Assembly (NCBI GenBank): GCA_044426265.1 | Contig: JAWXUR010000003.1 | Coordinates: 714 to 64,713 of the forward strand | Direction of reading: 5' to 3' | DNA length: 64,000 bases | Origin: Clostridia bacterium | GTDB taxonomy: Bacteria > Bacillota > Clostridia > Oscillospirales > Acutalibacteraceae | In this document: one piece after another, positions 30,518 to 51,965 of the stretch | Numbering within the stretch: position 1 is the stretch's first letter | How the letters are laid out: each line of letters opens with the position of its first letter | The notes under the pieces: model-generated | Database searches by the model: none | Told to the model about the DNA's origin: nothing | The model's input: the letters and a program-made list of their open reading frames with translations, nothing else | Program-made: the position numbers and the translations under genes

Positions 30518-31170
30518 GGTACAGTTTTTCTGTTATGCGTTTTTTATGGTACAGTTTTTGGCGGTAAACCGCAAAAAACGTGGTTTCGAGGGAGTGCGGT
30601 GGTTTTTGTTTCGTGAAATCACGAAACACGAATTTTTTCAGTTTCCATGGCATATGTATCGGTTAGTTTTTTTGTTTCTAGGTAGCTTTGATGTGTTGGG
30701 ACGTTTCGGCGAGCGTTTAATTTTGGCTTTGCCAAAATTATTGCGTGCCTTGCACGCAATTGCTGCGGCTTCGCCGCAGCAAAACGCTCGCCGAAACTGC
30801 ACCGCTAACTGACGATTACAATCCACAAAACAGTCGGCTGTCGCCGTCTGTTTTGCTAGTTTCATAAATCAAGCCGTAAAAATCGCTTTGCTCTTTTACT
30901 ACTAACGCAAATGCGATGTTATTTTCTCTTGGTTTGATTTGTAGGGTAATATAGTGCATTTAGTTTAGTTTTACGTTTATTTGAATCGCATTTGCTTTGC
31001 TTTAATTCTCAATTCTCAATTTTCAATTCTCCATTTTCTTGTGGTTTTCGCTCGTTGCGACGAGCGACTTAAGGCTCTGCCTTAAGAATCTGCAATTTTT
31101 CGTGAAAAATTGAGTAAAGCTTTGCTTGCTTTTTTTCTTTTTTCTTTTCTTTTTTTATTTTTTCTTTTTT
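30518..31170. repeat. Largest hairpin-array repeat locus R8 (~650 bp)
   Basis: GTAC palindrome (GGTACAG-TTTTTGGCGG-TAAA-CCGCAAAAAA), then GTTTCGTGA-AA-TCACGAAAC. A 16-bp outer stem encloses three hairpins at 30703..30797. Next come the AAAACAG..CTGTTTT hairpin, the CGCAAATGCGAT module, a 7-bp periodic tract (31004..31038), a partial hairpin chain (31046..31129) and a T/C tract (31130..31170) abutting the alaS stop. Confidence 0.88.
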
Positions 31171-33810: not shown

Positions 33811-33887
33811 TATGTTTATTTCCTTTCGGTTTTTATTTTTGTTTTGTAATTAATAATGTTATAATTAATTGAGAAAAAATCATGTAA

Positions 33888-34086
33888 AATTTTACTCAAT
33901 TTTTTTAAAAAATTGCGGTTTCTTAAGGCAGAGCCTTAAGGCGCTCGCCGCAGCGAGCGAAATCTCCTATCGTCAAAAAAATCAGGAGGATAGACAAAAA
34001 TTTGTCCATTGGACAATTTTTTGTCGTAAGGAACCCTATTAAGGGGTTCCTTGATTTTGCCAAAGGCAAAACAATACAGATTTGCC
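33888..34086. repeat. Hairpin-chain element, full copy H1, inside the alaS 5' leader
   Basis: At least six consecutive stem-loops: CAATTTTT/AAAAATTG, CTTAAGGC-AGA-GCCTTAAG, CGCTCGC-CGCA-GCGAGCG, TTTGTCCA/TGGACAA, GGAACCC-TATTAA-GGGGTTCC and TTTTGCC-AAA-GGCAAAA. Collinear with 38392..38597 (inverted) and 40926..41290. Confidence 0.88.
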
Positions 34087-38391: not shown

Positions 38392-38597
38392 GTAGCGGTG
38401 AGATTGCTTTGTTTTGCCTTCGGCAAAATCAAGAAACCCCCGCCGAGGGTTTCTTACGCAAAAATGTCCACCGGACACTTTTGCTATCTTCCTGCGGTTT
38501 TTTGGCGATAAGGTATTTCGTTCGCTGCGGCGAACGCCCAAAGGCTCTGCCTTTGGAAACCGCAATTTTTCGAGAAAAATTGAGTAAAGCTTTGCTC
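38392..38597. repeat. Hairpin-chain element, full copy H2 (inverted relative to H1)
   Basis: Begins GTAGCGGTGAG. Same module order as H1 but with changed, still-complementary stems: CCAAAGGC-TCT-GCCTTTGG, AGAAACCC...GGGTTTCT and GTTCGC-TGCG-GCGAAC. Ends 24 nt from the stop of the lipid-kinase gene. Confidence 0.88.
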
Positions 38598-38620
38598 ATT
38601 ATATTGCTTTAAAATTCTTC

Positions 38621-39588: not shown

Positions 39589-40704
39589 TTATTTATAATA
39601 CATAAAGAATTGACACTTGATCATTCCGTTGTATAATTTTCTTCTTTTATCAGCTTTTTTGCCATAAAAAATCTCAAAGTCATCTGATGGACTAATTACA
39701 TAGTAAGCCCAACCACGTTCTTTCTCGAATTTTTTGCCCATGACGCCGTAAAGCTCCTCAGCCATTGAGCTGTCAAGAAGTCTTTCGCCATATGGTGGGT
39801 TGCAAATAACTGTGCCTTTTTCGCTCTTTTTGGTGAAGTTGCGAATGTCAGCTTTTTCAAATGTGATGTATTTATCAACGCCAGCTCTTTTTGCGTTGAG
39901 TTTAGCAATTTCAACTGATTTTTCGTCAATGTCTGAGCCGTACGCCTTGAAGTCTGATTCAGTGCGAACAAGGCTAAGAGCTCTTTCTCTTTCTTCTTTC
40001 CAAACTTTTTGATCGATGTTTTCCCATCTTTCAGCTGTGAAGTTGCGGTTAACGCCAGCTGGAATGTTATGAGCGAGCATTGCAGCTTCAATGAGAATTG
40101 TGCCAGAGCCGCACATTGGATCGTAGACAGTGTGATAATGTCTAACTCTTGCGAGGTTGCAAAGTGAAGCGGCAAGGGTTTCTTTAATTGGTGCACCGTT
40201 TGCATCAAGTCTGTAACCACGTTTGTGCAGACCAGGACCTGAGGTGTCGATTAAAAGGCTAACCTTATTTTTCATGATTGAAAATTGGATTTGATAAAGT
40301 GGGCCTGTTTCTTCAAACCATGAGATGTCGTATTTTGAGCTGAGTCTATCAACAACAGCTTTTTTGATGATTGATTGGCAGTCACTAACGCTGAAAAGTG
40401 CGGAGTTGATTGAGTAACCCTTAACTGGGAACGCATCAAAAGCGCCGATCCATTCTTCCCAAGGGAGAGCTTTTGTGCCTTGAAATAAATCTTCAAAAGT
40501 GAGAGCTTCGAAGCTGCCCACGAGGATTTGAATTCTTTCAGCATATCTTGAATTGATGTTTGCTCTTGCCAAGATGTATTCATCTCCGCTAAATAAAACT
40601 CTGCCATTTTCTGCGACAACGTTTTGAGCTCCGAGTTCTTTCATTTCATCTGCGATGAGTTTTTCAAGTCCGAGCAAACAAGGAATAACGAAATTGATTT
40701 GCAT
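39589..40704 (-). CDS. THUMP-domain class I SAM-dependent RNA methyltransferase (RlmL/YpsC-like)
   Basis: THUMP-like N-terminal half, SAM motif DPMCGSGT and catalytic NPPYGERL. Start placed at ATG 40704 (MQINFVIPCL). Confidence 0.83.
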   Translation of the reverse strand: MQINFVIPCLLGLEKLIADEMKELGAQNVVAENGRVLFSGDEYILARANINSRYAERIQILVGSFEALTFEDLFQGTKALPWEEWIGAFDAFPVKGYSINSALFSVSDCQSIIKKAVVDRLSSKYDISWFEETGPLYQIQFSIMKNKVSLLIDTSGPGLHKRGYRLDANGAPIKETLAASLCNLARVRHYHTVYDPMCGSGTILIEAAMLAHNIPAGVNRNFTAERWENIDQKVWKEERERALSLVRTESDFKAYGSDIDEKSVEIAKLNAKRAGVDKYITFEKADIRNFTKKSEKGTVICNPPYGERLLDSSMAEELYGVMGKKFEKERGWAYYVISPSDDFEIFYGKKADKRRKLYNGMIKCQFFMYYK

Positions 40705-40925
40705 AAATACCTGCTTTCTAAGTTTACATACTATTTTTAATTTCAAATTCAGCCAAGTTTATAAGTAGCTGATAAAATGATTTTAGGTTATAGGCACGCT
40801 CGATTGAACACACCTATAACCATTGTAACATTTTTATTCGGATTTTAAAAGTAGTTTAGCGTAAAAAGTTTGATTTATGCTTGACTTTTTTCAGTTTTTG
40901 CACAACCCAACAGAAAATTGAGAAA

Positions 40926-41290
40926 AAGCAAGCAAAACTTTACTCAATTTTTCACAAAAAATTGCGGATTCTAAAGGCAGAGCCTTTAGGCGCTCGCCGC
41001 AGCGAGCGAAACTCCCAATCGTCAAAAAAATCAGGAGGATAGGCAAAGTGTCCAGTGGACATTTTTTTGCGCAGTAGCTTGTAAATTTTAAAACTTTACA
41101 TAATTATCGAGAGATTTTTGTCTAAATCAAGGCGGAGGATTGAGCAATACTTTCGTATTGCGATTGACGACAACGCAGAGTTAGACTAAAATATACGATA
41201 AGTATGTGGAGTTTTAGGGTTTATAAGCTACTTTGGAACCCTATTAAGGGGTTCCTTGATTTTGCCGCTGGCAAAACAAAACAATCTTAC
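40926..41290. repeat. Hairpin-chain element, full copy H3, carrying a nested 158-bp hairpin insertion
   Basis: Collinear with H1 except for 41074..41231 (GTAGCTT...AAGCTAC), inserted between the TGTCCA/TGGACA and GGAACCC/GGGTTCC modules. Confidence 0.88.
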
Positions 41291-41343
41291 CATCAAGCAA
41301 AAACTAAAAGTAAAAGCAAAAACTAAAAGTCAAAAACTAAAAA

Positions 41344-41874
41344 TCAAGAATTTTCAACAGTCAAAAGACCATAACCACCGCTACTTCTTTTATAAATAGT
41401 ACCAATTTTACCAGTATCACTATCTAAGAAAAGATAAAATTGATGATCAAGCAAGTTCATTTGAAGAATAGCTTCATCTAAACTTTGAGGTTTAAGTACT
41501 AAGCTCTTTGTTCTTTCGAGCATATATTCGTCATCATCTGATTCGTAAGAATCGAATCTGTCGTAAGCTTCGAAAGCTTCTTGTTTGAGCCTTTTTTCCA
41601 CCTTCGTTTTATTTTTACGGATTTGACGTACCAAAGAATCAACGCAACTATCAAGGGCTTCGTTCATGTTAATCGCTCTTTCTTGACTACGGAAAATCAT
41701 ACCATCATGATAAATAGTAACTTCCACCTTTTGTTCGCTTTTTTCAACTGTAGCAGTTACTTTCGCTTCCGTATCACTTGAGAAGAATTTTTCGATTTTC
41801 TCGAGTCTTTTTTCAGCTCTTTGAATGAATGAATCTCTAATTACGCATTTTCTGCCGACAACTGTTATTTTCAT
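41344..41874 (-). CDS. hpf: Ribosome hibernation-promoting factor (long HPF/RaiA family)
   Basis: 176 aa. S30AE-like N-terminal domain and a C-terminal dimerisation domain (LKPQSLDEAILQMNLLDHQFYLF). Confidence 0.9.
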   Translation of the reverse strand: MKITVVGRKCVIRDSFIQRAEKRLEKIEKFFSSDTEAKVTATVEKSEQKVEVTIYHDGMIFRSQERAINMNEALDSCVDSLVRQIRKNKTKVEKRLKQEAFEAYDRFDSYESDDDEYMLERTKSLVLKPQSLDEAILQMNLLDHQFYLFLDSDTGKIGTIYKRSSGGYGLLTVENS

Positions 41875-42101
41875 AACGTCATCTCCTTTCGTTTTTAAAT
41901 TGCTAGAACCAACTAAAACTTAATTTGTTCTATCTATATTATAGCACATTGTAGCAAAAAATAAAGCTTTTTTAGATAATTTTATTATATTTCCATAAAT
42001 TTTGGGGCTTTTCTCTGTTTTAAACAAAGATTACATTGCGTTTTTAGATATTTTTTACAAAGTTTAATTTTTATTTTAATTAAATATTAATCAAACATTG
42101 T

Positions 42102-42341
42102 TTATATTTTCGTTTTATAGTAAGCTTTTTCCAATTTTTCTTCGTATGTATTAAACTCAAACGGCTTACCTGTTTGGTTTTCGTATTGGGTTAATAGGGT
42201 TTTTAATTTTTGATGATAGCATGAGTTTAGGGTGTTTGCGGTTTGGTCGGTTTTTTGTTTTTTTAGGTATAATTCTATTGATAAGATTATTCTTTTTGTG
42301 GTTTTTATTTGTGATGTTAGTGTTTGGATTGTTTGTTTCAT
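42102..42341 (-). CDS. Small hypothetical protein (79 aa), uncertain
   Basis: ATG is preceded by AAGGGGTGA with 5-nt spacing, and a TATAAT lies about 30 nt upstream. Lys/Thr-rich, helical-looking, with no motif I recognise. Confidence 0.35.
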   Translation of the reverse strand: MKQTIQTLTSQIKTTKRIILSIELYLKKQKTDQTANTLNSCYHQKLKTLLTQYENQTGKPFEFNTYEEKLEKAYYKTKI

Positions 42342-42459
42342 GGTTTCACCCCTTTTTTAGGGTATTATATGCTGTTTTTGGTTTGGGGTTATTTATAACA
42401 CCCCTTAACCACAAATAAAAAATAAACAAACAAACTAATCTAAACGAAGTAAGACGTAA

Positions 42460-43262
42460 AAAGTTGGACGTAAGGAGCACCGCAGGTGCGGATATCCCAC
42501 TTTATAAAAGACTAAGGCAAAGAAGACAAAGAACAAAACAGTCGGGGTGTGCCAGATTTTTAGGCTGCAAGGCAGGCTAAAAATATTCCCCACCGACGGC
42601 GATAAAAATAAAATGTCCTAAATGCAGTGAGTTCCCCAAGAACGCATTTTGGTTACTTTTGTGCGAGCAAAAGTTACGCTGTGTTTTGTGTTAATTAAAA
42701 TGTTACAATAGCTATCGAGGTATTTTGTTTAAAACAAGGCGGAGGATTGAGCAATACTTTCGTATTGCGATTGACGACAACGAAGTTTTAAGCAAAATAA
42801 CCGATAGATATGTAATATTTTAGTTGACACAAAACACTAACGGCGAGCGTAGACGAGGCTTTCTTATAAATCAAGCTATAAAACAATAAGATTAATTTCT
42901 TTATATTACCTAATATTCGTTTACAGGTCACCAAAATAGCCAGCTGTCGCTGTCTGTTTTGGTTATGCCCATAAATCAGTCCGTAAAAAATCGCTTTGCT
43001 CTTTTTACTACTAACGCAAATGCGATATCGTTTTTCCTTTACATTGCTGTTTAGGTTACGATACCGCATTTAGTTAAATTGTTCTATTTTTTTTCGCATT
43101 TGCTTTTTTCATTTTTAAGTTTTTTATTTGTTTTGAAATTGCTGGGGATTTCGCTTGCTGCTGCAAGCGCCTTAAGGCTCTGCCTTAAGAATCCGCAATT
43201 TTTCGTGAAAAATTGAGTAAAGCTTTGCTTGCTTTTTTCTTTTTCTTTTTATTTTTTCTTAT
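42460..43262. repeat. Hairpin-array repeat locus R14 (~800 bp)
   Basis: Contains GCACC-GCA-GGTGC and a TTTTTAGGCTGC/GCAGGCTAAAAA hairpin. Carries the 48-nt core (42735..42782) on its own stem, modules inverted relative to 6890..6990, the CGCAAATGCGAT module, a partial hairpin chain (43148..43232) and a T/C tract (43233..43262) abutting a gene stop. Confidence 0.82.
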
Positions 43263-43264
43263 GT

Positions 43265-44395
43265 TTATTTTGCTTGAGCGTATACTTTTTCAATGATCTT
43301 TTCCATCTCATCTAAATGCTCTTCCATACTCTCAACCAACTTAAACTGATTTCTAGCTCTATCCAAATTATGACTATCATGCTTAACCGCAAAATAAACA
43401 TTACCTTGAATATGATCAGTCAAAAATCTAATGCCACACTCAAGTGTCATCAAAATCGCTGAAAACGCAATATTTTCAACTTCAGCTTTAGTCAAAGCAC
43501 CAGCACACTCGCCCAAAAAGCCCTTAGCATAACTCTCAAAAAGTTCAAGAGAAACATTAACCTTACTCAAATCTGTTTCATCTTCAACCGCAGTGTTAGC
43601 ACCAAAACGAATTGAATCACCAAAGTCATAAAGTGAAAGACCAGGCATAATAGTATCAAGGTCGATAATACAAATGCCCTTTTTTGTGTCGTTATCAAAA
43701 AGGATATTGTTAAGTTTAGTGTCGTTATGTGTCACTCGAAGTGGAATCAAGCCTTGTTTATGTAAGTCAATAACTCGATTAGTGGAAGCCTCATGAGCTT
43801 TAACAAACTCAATTTCTTTTTGTACGCTTTCACATTTGCCCACGATGTCAGCTTCAACTGCTTTTAGGAAAGTTTGATATCTAACTGGTGTATTATGGAA
43901 GTTTTCGATAGTTTCGTGAAGAGTTTCGATTGGATAATCGCTAAGCCTTTTTTGGAAAAGTCCAAAGTTTTTGCCAGCGTCTTCAAAAATCGCCTTATCT
44001 TCAATCACGTTGCAAGTGTAAGAATTATCAACGAAGTCGTAAATTCTCCAGCACTTATCAGTTTCATAATATAAATAACTGCCCTCATTTGTTTTAAGAA
44101 AGTTCAGTGTACCTCTTTTATAATCTGCACCCTCTTGTTTCATTTTGTTTCTCAAATGAGTTTCAACTCCAACTGTGTTTTGCATGATTTTTTCAGGGCT
44201 TTTGAAAACAACAGTGTTGAATTTTTGCACGATGTACTTGTGTACCTCGCCCACATTTTCAAAAACGGCTAAATAAGTTGAGTTGATGTGTCCGTCCGTA
44301 TAACGTGAACAGTCGGTAAGCTCGCCTTGTATGCCAAAATTTCGGCAAACAGCAACAAGTTCTTTTTGTACGCTAATTTCGATGTCTTTAATCAT
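43265..44395 (-). CDS. APH-fold sugar kinase, N-acetylhexosamine 1-kinase (NahK)-like
   Basis: 376 aa. DGHINSTY, IVQKFNTVVFKSPE and VTHNDTKLNNILFD resemble NahK-type kinases. Confidence 0.65.
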   Translation of the reverse strand: MIKDIEISVQKELVAVCRNFGIQGELTDCSRYTDGHINSTYLAVFENVGEVHKYIVQKFNTVVFKSPEKIMQNTVGVETHLRNKMKQEGADYKRGTLNFLKTNEGSYLYYETDKCWRIYDFVDNSYTCNVIEDKAIFEDAGKNFGLFQKRLSDYPIETLHETIENFHNTPVRYQTFLKAVEADIVGKCESVQKEIEFVKAHEASTNRVIDLHKQGLIPLRVTHNDTKLNNILFDNDTKKGICIIDLDTIMPGLSLYDFGDSIRFGANTAVEDETDLSKVNVSLELFESYAKGFLGECAGALTKAEVENIAFSAILMTLECGIRFLTDHIQGNVYFAVKHDSHNLDRARNQFKLVESMEEHLDEMEKIIEKVYAQAK

Positions 44396-51368: not shown

Positions 51369-51965
51369 GCGTAGGGGTTGACCTCATAGCTGGGAACTTA
51401 AATGAAAAACCATCAATCACAACGTAGGGACATGGCTTGCCATGTCAGAAACTTGGTTTGTGCTATACTTGCGGACATGGCAAGCCATGTCCCTACAATA
51501 GGAAAATTGTAGGGGCGACCTGTGGTCGCCAGTAGGTTTGATGAAATTTTCTGGCGACCTCAGGTCGCCCCTACACTAACAAATAAATTTTTCAAATCTC
51601 TTAAGTTACTGGCAATAAAATCGCCCACTACGTTTTTAAAGGAATTTCATAAAGCAATCCGTAAAAAATCGCTTTGCTCTTTTTACTACTAACGCAAATG
51701 CGATATCGTTTTTTCCTTTAGATTGCTCTTTAGGAAACGATACCGCATTTAGTTAGTTTGTTTTATTTTTTTATCGCATTTGCTTGTTGCTAATTTTCAA
51801 TTTTCAATTCTCAATTTTCAATTTTCTTGGGGTGTTTCGCTTGCTGCTGCAAGCGACTTAAGGCTCTGCCTTAAGAATCTGCAATTTTTCGTGAAAAATT
51901 GAGTAAAGCTTTGCTTGCTTTTTTCTTTTTTATTTTTATTTTTTATTTTTCTTTTTATTCTTTAC
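51369..51965. repeat. Composite repeat R16
   Basis: REPIN-like doublets at 51424..51496 and 51509..51574, inverted relative to 17502..17652. Also the CGCAAATGCGAT module (51655..51765), a 7-bp periodic tract (51792..51826), a partial hairpin chain (51835..51918) and a T/C tract (51919..51965) abutting a gene stop. Confidence 0.88.

What the first reader, a model, noticed from the sequence alone, without database searches (positions are those of the whole stretch)
41074..41231. Nested 158-bp GTAG...CTAC hairpin inserted into one copy of the hairpin chain, with strand-asymmetric G:U pairing
Copy H3 is collinear with H1 and H2 except that GTAGCTT...AAGCTAC (41074..41231) sits where the other copies read TGTCGTAAGGAACCC or TGCGTAAGAAACCC. 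This looks like a precise insertion with GTAG/CTAC termini, which would be direct evidence of mobility. Folding by hand, positions 41074..41109 pair with 41231..41196 as 29 Watson-Crick pairs, 6 G:T(U) pairs and 1 mismatch. All six wobble pairs are G:U only when the plus strand is read; on the complement they become C:A mismatches. The fold is therefore better on one strand, as expected for an RNA or for a strand-specific ssDNA transposition intermediate.
Basis: seen in the sequence. Interest (0 to 1): 0.75.

Follow-up and report, generated by a model that had tools for sequence, protein, structure and literature searches.

The report
Mobile hairpin repeat with conserved core
The 158-base hairpin is one copy of a previously undescribed family of small, protein-less mobile DNA hairpins (MITE-like) found in Clostridia and Streptomyces, whose stems vary freely but whose purine-rich tip is almost invariant and which always folds better on one strand.

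Summary
Window 41074-41231 is a 158-nt near-perfect hairpin: the outer 36 positions give 29 Watson-Crick pairs, 6 G:T and 1 mismatch. It interrupts chain copy H3 where H1 and H2 read TAAG. As RNA it folds at -61.8 kcal/mol on the + strand and -44.1 on the - strand.

It is not unique. A second copy lies at 42681-42837. Pattern scans found about 185 more, in Clostridia MAGs (most of 108 in one Syntrophomonas genome), in digester and soil metagenomes, and on at least 40 Streptomyces plasmids.

All copies share:
- arms of about 60 nt that differ between lineages but covary;
- a 7-bp apical stem;
- a near-invariant internal loop, AAGGCGGAGGAUUGA / GAUUGACGACAACG.

Copies are intergenic, at unique sites, in both orientations, with TA-containing flanks. 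One clean filled/empty pair in S. atratus shows a TAA(G) duplication, and near-identical strains differ in presence.

I read it as a non-autonomous hairpin transposable element of the Correia/ERIC/RUP kind. It is absent from Rfam and from the literature I searched.

The G:T asymmetry is family-wide (405 G:T vs 142 A:C), so one strand seems to act folded, as RNA or ssDNA.

GTAG/CTAC is not a family feature, and an IS200/IS605-type mechanism is not supported. The mobilising enzyme is unknown.

The parts
41074..41231 (+). Hairpin element, copy A (158 nt): two arms of about 60 nt plus the apical module
   Evidence: Fold -61.8 kcal/mol, z = -10.7. Covariance model R1 scores 100.6 bits on the + strand. 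Pair counts.
41072..41073 (.). CA, a possible decayed left copy of the TA-containing target duplication
   Evidence: H1 and H2 read GCG TAA GG here. Family flanks are mostly TA.
41232..41234 (.). TTT, a possible decayed right copy of the target (TAA in H1 and H2)
   Evidence: Alignment of H1, H2 and H3. Pseudo-empty-site BLAST.
41129..41143 (+). 5' strand of the conserved internal loop, AAGGCGGAGGATTGA
   Evidence: Invariant or nearly invariant in 57 distinct sequences from two phyla.
41144..41161 (+). Apical stem-loop P3 (GCAATAC TTTC GTATTGC)
   Evidence: 98% of cells paired; all 7 pairs show double compensatory changes across lineages.
41162..41177 (+). 3' strand of the conserved internal loop, GATTGACGACAACGCA
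   Evidence: Invariant or nearly invariant. Contains TTGACG, flagged as -35-like.
42681..42837 (+). Hairpin element, copy B (157 nt). Core identical to copy A; different outer stem (GTGTTTTGTG...CACAAAACAC).
   Evidence: BLAST 96.7% over the inner 60 nt. Alignment. R1 scores 100.0 bits on the + strand and 13 on the - strand. Fold -57.0 vs -39.8 kcal/mol.
40928..41071 (+). Left part of the host repeat, 'hairpin chain' copy H3
   Evidence: Collinear with H1 and H2.
41235..41290 (+). Right part of chain copy H3
   Evidence: Collinear with H1 and H2.
33880..34085 (+). Chain copy H1, an uninterrupted paralogous 'empty site' reading ...GTCG TAAG GAACCC...
38398..38600 (-). Chain copy H2, an uninterrupted paralogous 'empty site' reading ...TGCG TAAG AAACCC...

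Best explanation
The 158-nt hairpin is one copy of a non-autonomous, protein-less transposable hairpin, a bacterial MITE in the sense of Correia, ERIC and RUP. It inserted at a TAAG in chain copy H3.

Anatomy of the family:
- two arms of about 60 nt that pair over their whole length and are free to change as long as pairing is kept;
- a 7-bp apical stem;
- between these, a roughly 15 x 16-nt purine-rich internal loop that is almost invariant from Clostridia to Streptomyces.

Shown:
- dispersal to unique intergenic sites in both orientations;
- TA-containing flanks;
- one clean TAA(G) target duplication;
- presence/absence between near-identical plasmids;
- covariation of the stems;
- a family-wide excess of G:T over A:C on the core-sense strand.

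Inferred:
- Copies are moved in trans by a transposase that makes short staggered cuts at TA-containing sites. I put about 0.5-0.6 on a DDE enzyme of the IS5/IS1182 or IS630 type.
- The conserved loop plus the one-strand bias mean that a single-stranded form of the core-sense strand must fold and be bound by a conserved partner. I lean slightly to an RNA transcript (about 0.55) over ssDNA (about 0.45).
- The loop can be written as a continuous non-Watson-Crick helix, (GGA)(GGA)UUGA opposite GAUU(GAC)(GAC). That gives three tandem G.A/A.G pairs, two U.U pairs and G-C pairs.
For: Family and dispersal.
- 108 copies in GTDB genomes, most of them in one Syntrophomonas MAG and many sitting at contig ends.
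- 76 copies in metagenome contigs.
- At least 40 Streptomyces plasmid records, with up to 8-11 places per S. atratus megaplasmid.

Structure.
- 81.8% of cells are paired, against 39-43% for slid controls.
- 493 cells show a change on both sides. P3 is 98% paired and P2 88%.
- RNAalifold gives the same P2/P3.
- Arm length is about 59-66 nt in both phyla.

Strand bias.

Context. All copies are intergenic and show no orientation bias: 19 (same, same) against 26 (opposite, opposite).

Flanks.
- C-TA | G...C | TA-G, with positions -4 and +4 random.
- Streptomyces copies carry TTA or TAA on both sides.

Filled versus empty sites.
- Clean pair: L192 filled against L193/L194 empty, with TAAG present at both junctions of the filled site.
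- Strain polymorphism with 658 and 665 nt of identical flanks.
- Window: H3 against H1 and H2.

The MITE definition is taken from PMC2229807.
Against: - No transposase with matching ends was found. There is no recurrent neighbouring gene in about 1.3 Mb of loci.
- The terminal arms, which a transposase should recognise, are the variable part, and the centre is the conserved part. This is the reverse of a textbook MITE.
- A double-strand cut-and-paste enzyme does not by itself explain the one-strand G:T bias.
- The window copy's own flanks (CA / TTT) are not an intact duplication.
- The S. atratus strain polymorphism is a 178-for-11-nt replacement, not a clean insertion.
- One pair of loci has identical short flanks but the element in opposite orientations. 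This could reflect inversion or patch conversion rather than transposition.
Confidence: 0.7

Rival explanations
1. It is a multi-copy structured non-coding RNA gene, a trans-acting RNA or RNP component. On this reading the insertions are gene duplications, and the hairpin is primarily an RNA, not a transposon.
For: - The conservation pattern is RNA-like: stems covary and the purine-rich internal loop is invariant.
- 77 of 78 distinct copies fold better in the sense orientation.
- U.G pairs recur at fixed stem positions, columns 22/91 and 23/90.
Against: - No conserved promoter or terminator: flanks are random beyond 3 nt.
- No -10 element is conserved downstream of the internal TTGACG. This comes from my inspection of the sequences.
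- Copies lie in either orientation a few nt from unrelated genes.
- One genome holds most of the 108 near-identical copies.
- A target duplication and a presence/absence polymorphism were found.
- Not in Rfam.

This reading is compatible with the best explanation as a second layer, but not as a replacement for it.
Confidence: 0.12
2. It is a single-strand DNA transposon remnant of the IS200/IS605 or REP-RAYT type. A Y1 HUH enzyme would excise and insert the folded top strand and recognise the GTAG foot.
For: - GTAG...CTAC termini in copy A and in one Syntrophomonas subfamily.
- Strand-specific G:T bias, also seen with DNA parameters: sense is better in 76 of 78 copies, mean difference -5.9 kcal/mol.
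- Variants occur in which the left half of the core has been overwritten by the exact complement of the right half. This shows that hairpins form in DNA.
Against: - GTAG is not conserved: other lineages begin with GTAC, GTGC, GAGC, GACC or GGTC.
- Both flanks are symmetric and contain TA, and a target duplication is seen. IS200/IS605 elements insert 3' of a specific tetra- or pentanucleotide, have asymmetric ends and make no duplication (established knowledge).
- No orientation bias relative to gene direction, used here as a proxy for replication direction.
- No recurrent neighbouring gene of any kind.
Confidence: 0.1
3. It is a chance palindrome or a local inverted duplication private to this locus.
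For: None beyond the fact that only two copies lie in the 64-kb window.
Against: - z = -10.7 against shuffles.
- About 185 homologous copies in two phyla.
- Covariation.
Confidence: 0.01

Closest known systems
Correia / NEMIS / CREE elements of Neisseria
   Same: - About 105-155 bp, with no protein.
- Long inverted repeats, so that the transcript is one long hairpin.
- TA at the termini, hundreds of intergenic copies, and no transposase identified (PMC2229807; PMC5039591).
- From memory, partly checked through the literature index, the Correia core contains CAGGACAAGGCGACGAAGCCGCAG and GGCAAGGCGAGGC. These resemble CAAGGCG...ACGACAACGCAG here.
- The Correia end TATAGTGGATTAACAAAAA resembles TAGAGCAGATTAACAAAAC of one Oscillospiraceae lineage.
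   Different: - Correia ends are conserved and its family is confined to Neisseria.
- Here the ends vary and the apical loop is conserved across two phyla.
- No IHF site or RNase III data exist for this family.
- The sequence resemblance is a lead only and was not tested statistically.
ERIC / IRU repeats of enterobacteria
   Same: - A 127-bp imperfect palindrome with TA termini and a conserved central part.
- Intergenic, co-transcribed, and with an orientation-dependent effect on mRNA stability (PMC2229807).
   Different: - Different sequence, and confined to Gammaproteobacteria.
- No evidence yet that the present family acts on neighbouring mRNAs.
- Copies here show no orientation preference relative to genes.
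RUP of Streptococcus pneumoniae, with IS630-Spn1
   Same: A small Firmicute MITE that inserts at TA and is often found nested in other repeats or IS elements.
   Different: RUP has an identified candidate transposase with matching ends. No partner was found here.
Tourist-type MITEs with PIF/Harbinger transposases, and the bacterial IS5 family (3-4 bp TWA / YTAR duplications)
   Same: - The one clean filled/empty pair shows TAA(G) duplicated.
- Streptomyces copies are flanked by TTA or TAA.
- Clostridial copies are flanked by CTA...TAG.
   Different: - The assignment of target-duplication types to these IS families rests on my memory and was not tested here.
- The only transposase seen next to a copy is a truncated IS1182/IS5-like gene, which is a single case.
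REP / BIME elements with RAYT
   Same: - Extragenic palindromes that fill many intergenic spacers. L004, for example, holds about five copies or variants in 8 kb.
- GTAG foot in some copies.
   Different: - REPs are about 35 nt and cluster around a RAYT gene.
- This family is about 160 nt, GTAG is not conserved, and no RAYT was seen.

Membership tests
Bacterial MITE (criteria of PMC2229807) | Under 200 bp and no protein-coding capacity | tested here: met
   158 nt. No ORF of 60 aa or more lies wholly within it. The longest conceivable peptide is 14 codons, and it is broken by compensatory changes in P3.
Bacterial MITE (criteria of PMC2229807) | Terminal inverted repeats; transcript forms a long stable stem-loop | tested here: met
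Bacterial MITE (criteria of PMC2229807) | 5'-TA-3' at the termini | tested here: met
   Family: TA/TA in 30 of 63 copies, with most of the rest one transition away. Streptomyces copies carry TTA or TAA. Window copy A itself has CA / TT, so the feature is decayed there.
Bacterial MITE (criteria of PMC2229807) | Target-site duplication, shown by filled versus empty sites | tested here: inconclusive
   One clean case: TAAG is present at both junctions of L192 and once in L193/L194. In the window the length fits 158 + 2 nt (or 157 + 3), but the flanks have decayed. The S. atratus strain polymorphism is a 178-for-11-nt replacement.
Bacterial MITE (criteria of PMC2229807) | Many dispersed copies at unrelated sites | tested here: met
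   There are only 2 copies in this 64-kb window.
Bacterial MITE (criteria of PMC2229807) | A cognate autonomous IS with matching ends | tested here: not met
   No orphan long element with the same ends. No recurrent neighbouring protein in about 1.3 Mb. This partner is also missing for Correia and ERIC.
IS200/IS605-derived PATE or REP-RAYT | Conserved foot tetranucleotide (GTAG) and asymmetric ends; insertion 3' of a fixed motif without duplication | tested here: not met
   Termini vary. Flanks are symmetric and contain TA, and a duplication is seen.
IS200/IS605-derived PATE or REP-RAYT | Orientation bias with replication; associated Y1 transposase | tested here: not met
   No bias relative to gene direction, which is only a proxy for replication direction. 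No recurrent neighbouring gene. A Y1 domain scan of all neighbours was not run.
Correia element (Neisseria) | 26-bp Correia inverted repeat TATAGTGGATTAA(C/A)... and the Correia core | tested here: not met
   Published repeat variants are absent from the window copy. Only partial resemblance in one lineage and in short core strings.
Any Rfam 15 RNA family | Score at or above a family's gathering threshold | tested here: not met
   Window. Permissive scan of 40700-43300. 18 related loci.

The most novel reading that the evidence does not exclude
The near-invariant GA-rich internal loop with its 7-bp cap, held about 60 bp from the element ends in two phyla, may be a new structured RNA (or ssDNA) module that is the true functional unit. 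On this reading a conserved partner binds the folded core-sense strand and either measures out the ends or uses the RNA, which would be a mobilisation or host-interaction mechanism not described for any MITE. The loop carries a perfect Shine-Dalgarno string (GGAGG) on one strand and TTGAC on the other, so the partner could even be the ribosome or RNA polymerase.
Probability: 0.2. Interest if true: 0.85.

Novelty: new variant of a known kind. Interest (0 to 1): 0.6.

Why it matters
Bacterial MITEs such as Correia and ERIC have been known for decades, yet how they move is still unknown. This family offers features that make the question testable.

- Its sequence constraint sits in a small apical module, not in the ends.
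- The module is shared by Clostridia and Streptomyces.
- The one-strand bias says that a single-stranded form matters.
- It occurs in cultured, fully sequenced Streptomyces strains that already differ in copy presence.

It also matters practically.
- The element breaks short-read assemblies of the window's organism and of MAGs.
- It is unannotated in RefSeq records.
- It sits within a few bases of gene ends, where it could alter expression.

Tried and rejected
- **Rfam:** gathering and permissive scans of the window and of 18 related loci found nothing.
- **Viral contigs:** 0 matches.
- **Plasmid and phage collections, queried with the AT-rich window copy:** no match. Only GC-rich queries later found the Streptomyces copies.
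- **Literature:** no hit for the core strings, for MITEs in Syntrophomonas or Streptomyces, or for the terminal arm strings.
- **Empty site in relatives of the window organism:**
  - The nearest HPF homologue is 74% identical, from Ruminococcaceae/Acutalibacteraceae MAGs.
  - The only same-species contigs (Logan SRR26557938, SRR26879383, SRR26557942) all end inside the chain repeat.
- **Autonomous partner:**
  - No long element with the same ends.
  - No half-cores split by an ORF.
  - No recurrent neighbouring protein.
  - The IS1182/IS5-like transposase next to one Streptomyces copy is truncated and is a single case.
- **Small peptide** (TTG AGC AAT ACT...): rejected, because P3 changes by compensation.
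- **Internal promoter:** TTGACG plus 17 nt plus TAAAAT is present in copy A. By my inspection, the -10 is not conserved, least of all in Streptomyces.
- **K-turn reading of the loops:** does not fit the consensus, by inspection only.
- **Resemblances to SRP RNA, tmRNA and 16S rRNA:** judged to be chance, from memory and not tested.

Full report
**1. The observation**

Pairing 41074..41109 with 41231..41196 gives 29 Watson-Crick pairs, 6 G:T and 1 mismatch, and all six wobbles are G:T on the + strand.

The whole 158 nt folds as one rod:
- + strand, RNA parameters: -61.8 kcal/mol, z = -10.7.
- - strand: -44.1 kcal/mol.

The element lies in the spacer between the hpf/raiA gene (41344-41874, -) and an RlmL-like methyltransferase gene (39589-40746, -). 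It sits inside copy H3 of a repeat built from a chain of small hairpins. That repeat has six copies in the window, three long and three short.

Aligning H1, H2 and H3 shows collinearity, except that H3 has CA + 158 nt + TTT where H1 and H2 read TAA, within ...GCG TAAG GAACCC. The insertion is real, its boundaries are good to about 2 nt, and 160 nt are added.

**2. It is not unique**

A second copy lies at 42681-42837 on the same strand, upstream of hpf. Its inner 60 nt are 96.7% identical to copy A. Its outer stem is different (GTGTTTTGTG...CACAAAACAC) but still pairs. It shows the same strand asymmetry, -57.0 vs -39.8 kcal/mol.

The shared part is an apical module, CAAGGCGGAGGATTGA - 7-bp stem-loop - GATTGACGACAACG. 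Rfam has nothing for it.

**3. The family**

Pattern scans based on the module gave:
- GTDB species genomes: 106 loci with 108 copies. Most are in one Syntrophomonas MAG, and many sit at contig ends, so the repeat breaks the assembly. The rest are in several Oscillospiraceae and other Bacillota MAGs and in Streptomyces.
- Metagenome contigs: 74 loci with 76 copies, ranging from 31% to 74% G+C.
- Plasmid collection, queried with GC-rich copies: at least 40 Streptomyces plasmid records, with up to 8-11 places on each S. atratus megaplasmid. Nearly all lie in stretches without an annotated gene.
- Viral contigs, phage records, and plasmids queried with the AT-rich copy: nothing.

The window's organism is an Oscillospirales relative without a close sequenced neighbour. 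Its best HPF match is 74% identical.

**4. Anatomy and constraint**

Every copy is a rod of about 158-170 nt, with arms of about 59-66 nt in both phyla.

I aligned 57 sequences no more than 88% identical to each other and tested the structure P1b/P2/P3 on that alignment:
- 81.8% of cells form a standard pair, against 39-43% when the partners are slid.
- 493 cells show a change on both sides.
- P3 is 98% paired and P2 is 88% paired.

RNAalifold finds the same helices.

Between P2 and P3 lies a loop of about 15 x 16 nt that is invariant or nearly so. Two points limit that statement. The search patterns forced 24 of these bases. The unforced neighbours (CAAGGC, AACGNAG) are also conserved, and model-based hits outside the patterns show only limited variation.

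Read antiparallel, the loop can be written as (GGA)(GGA)UUGA opposite GAUU(GAC)(GAC). That gives three tandem G.A/A.G pairs, two U.U pairs and G-C pairs. This is my reading of the sequence and has not been tested.

A covariance model built from the alignment finds only the two copies in the window, at 100.6 and 100.0 bits on the + strand. The - strand of copy B scores 13 bits.

**5. Strand asymmetry**

- In stems only, over 106 representative copies no more than 85% identical to each other, there are 405 G:T against 142 A:C on the core-sense strand. G:T exceeds A:C in 84 representatives and the reverse holds in 9 (sign test p = 2e-16) (first pass).
- Of 78 distinct copies, 77 fold better in sense as RNA, with a mean difference of -13.4 kcal/mol. 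With DNA parameters 76 of 78 do so, with a mean difference of -5.9 kcal/mol. Part of that difference comes from the constant core.
- U.G pairs recur at fixed P2 positions.

Copies lie in both orientations relative to flanking genes: 19 (same, same) against 26 (opposite, opposite), and essentially all are intergenic. So the bias belongs to the element and not to host transcription or replication.

**6. Evidence of mobility and of the target**

- **Flanks in Clostridia.** The pattern is C-TA | G...C | TA-G, and positions beyond that are random.
- **Flanks in Streptomyces.** The GACC...GGTC subfamily has TTA or TAA on both sides.
- **Clean filled/empty pair.** L192 (S. atratus CP108277, 707.4 kb) reads CCCCATA TAAG ACCGACC...GGTCGGTC TAAG TCGGCGG. 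The paralogous sites L193 and L194 read CCCCATA TAAG TCGGCGG. This is a duplication of TAA, giving symmetric G...C ends, or of TAAG.
- **Same target in the window.** The window's empty sites H1 and H2 also read TAAG at the insertion point.
- **Strain polymorphism.** Near-identical S. atratus plasmids differ in presence. CP108284 and CP109382 carry a copy that CP108277 lacks, with 658 and 665 nt of 100% identical flank.
- **That junction is not clean.** 178 nt replace 11 nt. The inserted block carries the same 14-nt and 13-nt flanks as L192 but with the element in the opposite orientation. I cannot decide between two readings:
  - site-specific insertion, in either orientation, into a small repeated target;
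  - patch conversion plus inversion between the 24-bp perfect terminal arms.
- **Decay products.** These include internally deleted copies, copies with small secondary hairpins inserted, and copies whose left half-core has been overwritten by the exact complement of the right half. The last shows that the hairpin forms in DNA.

**7. What moves it**

No autonomous partner was found:
- no long element with the same ends;
- no recurrent neighbouring protein in about 1.3 Mb of loci;
- only one truncated IS1182/IS5-like transposase next to one copy.

Short TA-containing duplications are typical of DDE transposases of the IS630 and IS5 families. That statement rests on my memory of ISfinder and of the PIF/Harbinger literature. 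I therefore commit to trans-mobilisation by such an enzyme at about 0.5-0.6.

This leaves two things unexplained: why the ends vary while the centre is fixed, and why one strand is favoured. My inference is that the folded core-sense strand, as RNA (slightly favoured) or as ssDNA, is bound by a conserved partner.

An IS200/IS605 or REP-RAYT mechanism is not supported. GTAG is not conserved, the ends are symmetric, a duplication exists, and there is no orientation bias.

**8. Comparison with known systems**

The element meets the working definition of a bacterial MITE in PMC2229807. It is under 200 bp, encodes no protein, has inverted repeats and TA termini, forms a long stem-loop, and occurs in many intergenic copies. 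The target duplication is shown only once, and a cognate IS is missing, as it is for Correia and ERIC.

The closest relatives in kind are Correia, ERIC and RUP.

Short strings of the Correia core and end resemble this family. The Correia strings come from my memory, and the literature index confirms that they occur in the gonococcal repeat paper. I treat this as a lead, not as homology.

I found no description of this family in Rfam or in the papers searched.

**9. Verdict**

The finding is real and the insertion reading is right. The element is a new, cross-phylum variant of the hairpin-MITE kind. It has an unusually RNA-like conservation pattern and a robust one-strand bias. The mechanism is only partly resolved.

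Noticed in passing
window 33880-34085 (+), 38398-38600 (-), 40928-41290 (+); short forms 31040-31140 (-), 43140-43243 (-), 51828-51929 (-): The 'hairpin chain' that hosts copy A is itself a repeat family with six copies in 64 kb. It is built of up to five small hairpins. Several of these keep pairing through double changes, for example CTCG/CGAG, CTTGC/GCAAG and TTCG/CGAA, or TTAAGG/CCTTAA against CAAAGG/CCTTTG. Copies lie just downstream of genes, in both orientations. Not in Rfam.
   Followed up: partly
window 30900-30965, 43000-43075, 51700-51760: Another repeated imperfect palindrome (ACTAACGCAAATGCGAT...CGATACCGCATTTAGTT) lies next to each short chain copy. It is followed by runs of CAATTTTCAATTCTCAATT-type short tandem repeats (about 31005-31035 and 51795-51830).
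   Followed up: no
window 41875-43265: An unusually long stretch (about 1.4 kb) upstream of hpf has only one small called gene (42102-42341, 79 aa) and a doubtful 93-aa ORF that overlaps copy B. It contains GC-rich hairpins (about 42539-42600) and copy B. A 19-nt unit repeated about three times lies at 41295-41346, just beyond the hpf stop codon.
   Followed up: no
Logan contigs L107, L108, L109: All short-read contigs of the same organism (100% identical; SRR26557938, SRR26879383, SRR26557942) end inside the chain repeat. These repeats therefore fragment its assemblies.
   Followed up: yes
L015, L062, L079, L100, L103, L105 (Syntrophomonas MAG): In these variant copies the purine-rich left half of the core is replaced by the exact reverse complement of the right half (GTCGTCAATCGC...GCGATTGACGAC). 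The loop becomes a perfect stem, which looks like quasipalindrome correction at the DNA level.
   Followed up: partly
L188 / L189 / L192 (S. atratus plasmids CP108284, CP108277): Two loci share identical 14-nt and 13-nt flanks but carry the element in opposite orientations. The strain-specific copy replaces 11 nt that formed a small hairpin in the empty allele. The cause is not resolved.
   Followed up: partly
L186 2570-2620, L192 about 795-835, L181, L163: A second, smaller GC-rich hairpin (GGGGTCTCCCCTGCTCGAGCG...CGAGAGCTTGGGG) is found inserted at different places inside Streptomyces copies, either in the P3 loop or in the 3' arm of P2. This suggests another tiny nested repeat family.
   Followed up: no
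element ends in many Clostridial copies; window copy B 42824-42829: The terminal arms often carry an outward-facing perfect -35 hexamer (GTTGACAG... read outwards) about 9 nt from each end. The core also carries TTGACG. Insertions could therefore create hybrid promoters, as reported for Correia. The -10 is not conserved.
   Followed up: partly
L187 (S. coelicoflavus plasmid CP108220, 11615-11744) and CP045549: One Streptomyces copy sits inside a type II polyketide cluster, between an aromatase/cyclase gene and a fabG-like ketoreductase gene. Its core is diverged (GGAGGAGGGCG...CAACCGACGAC).
   Followed up: no
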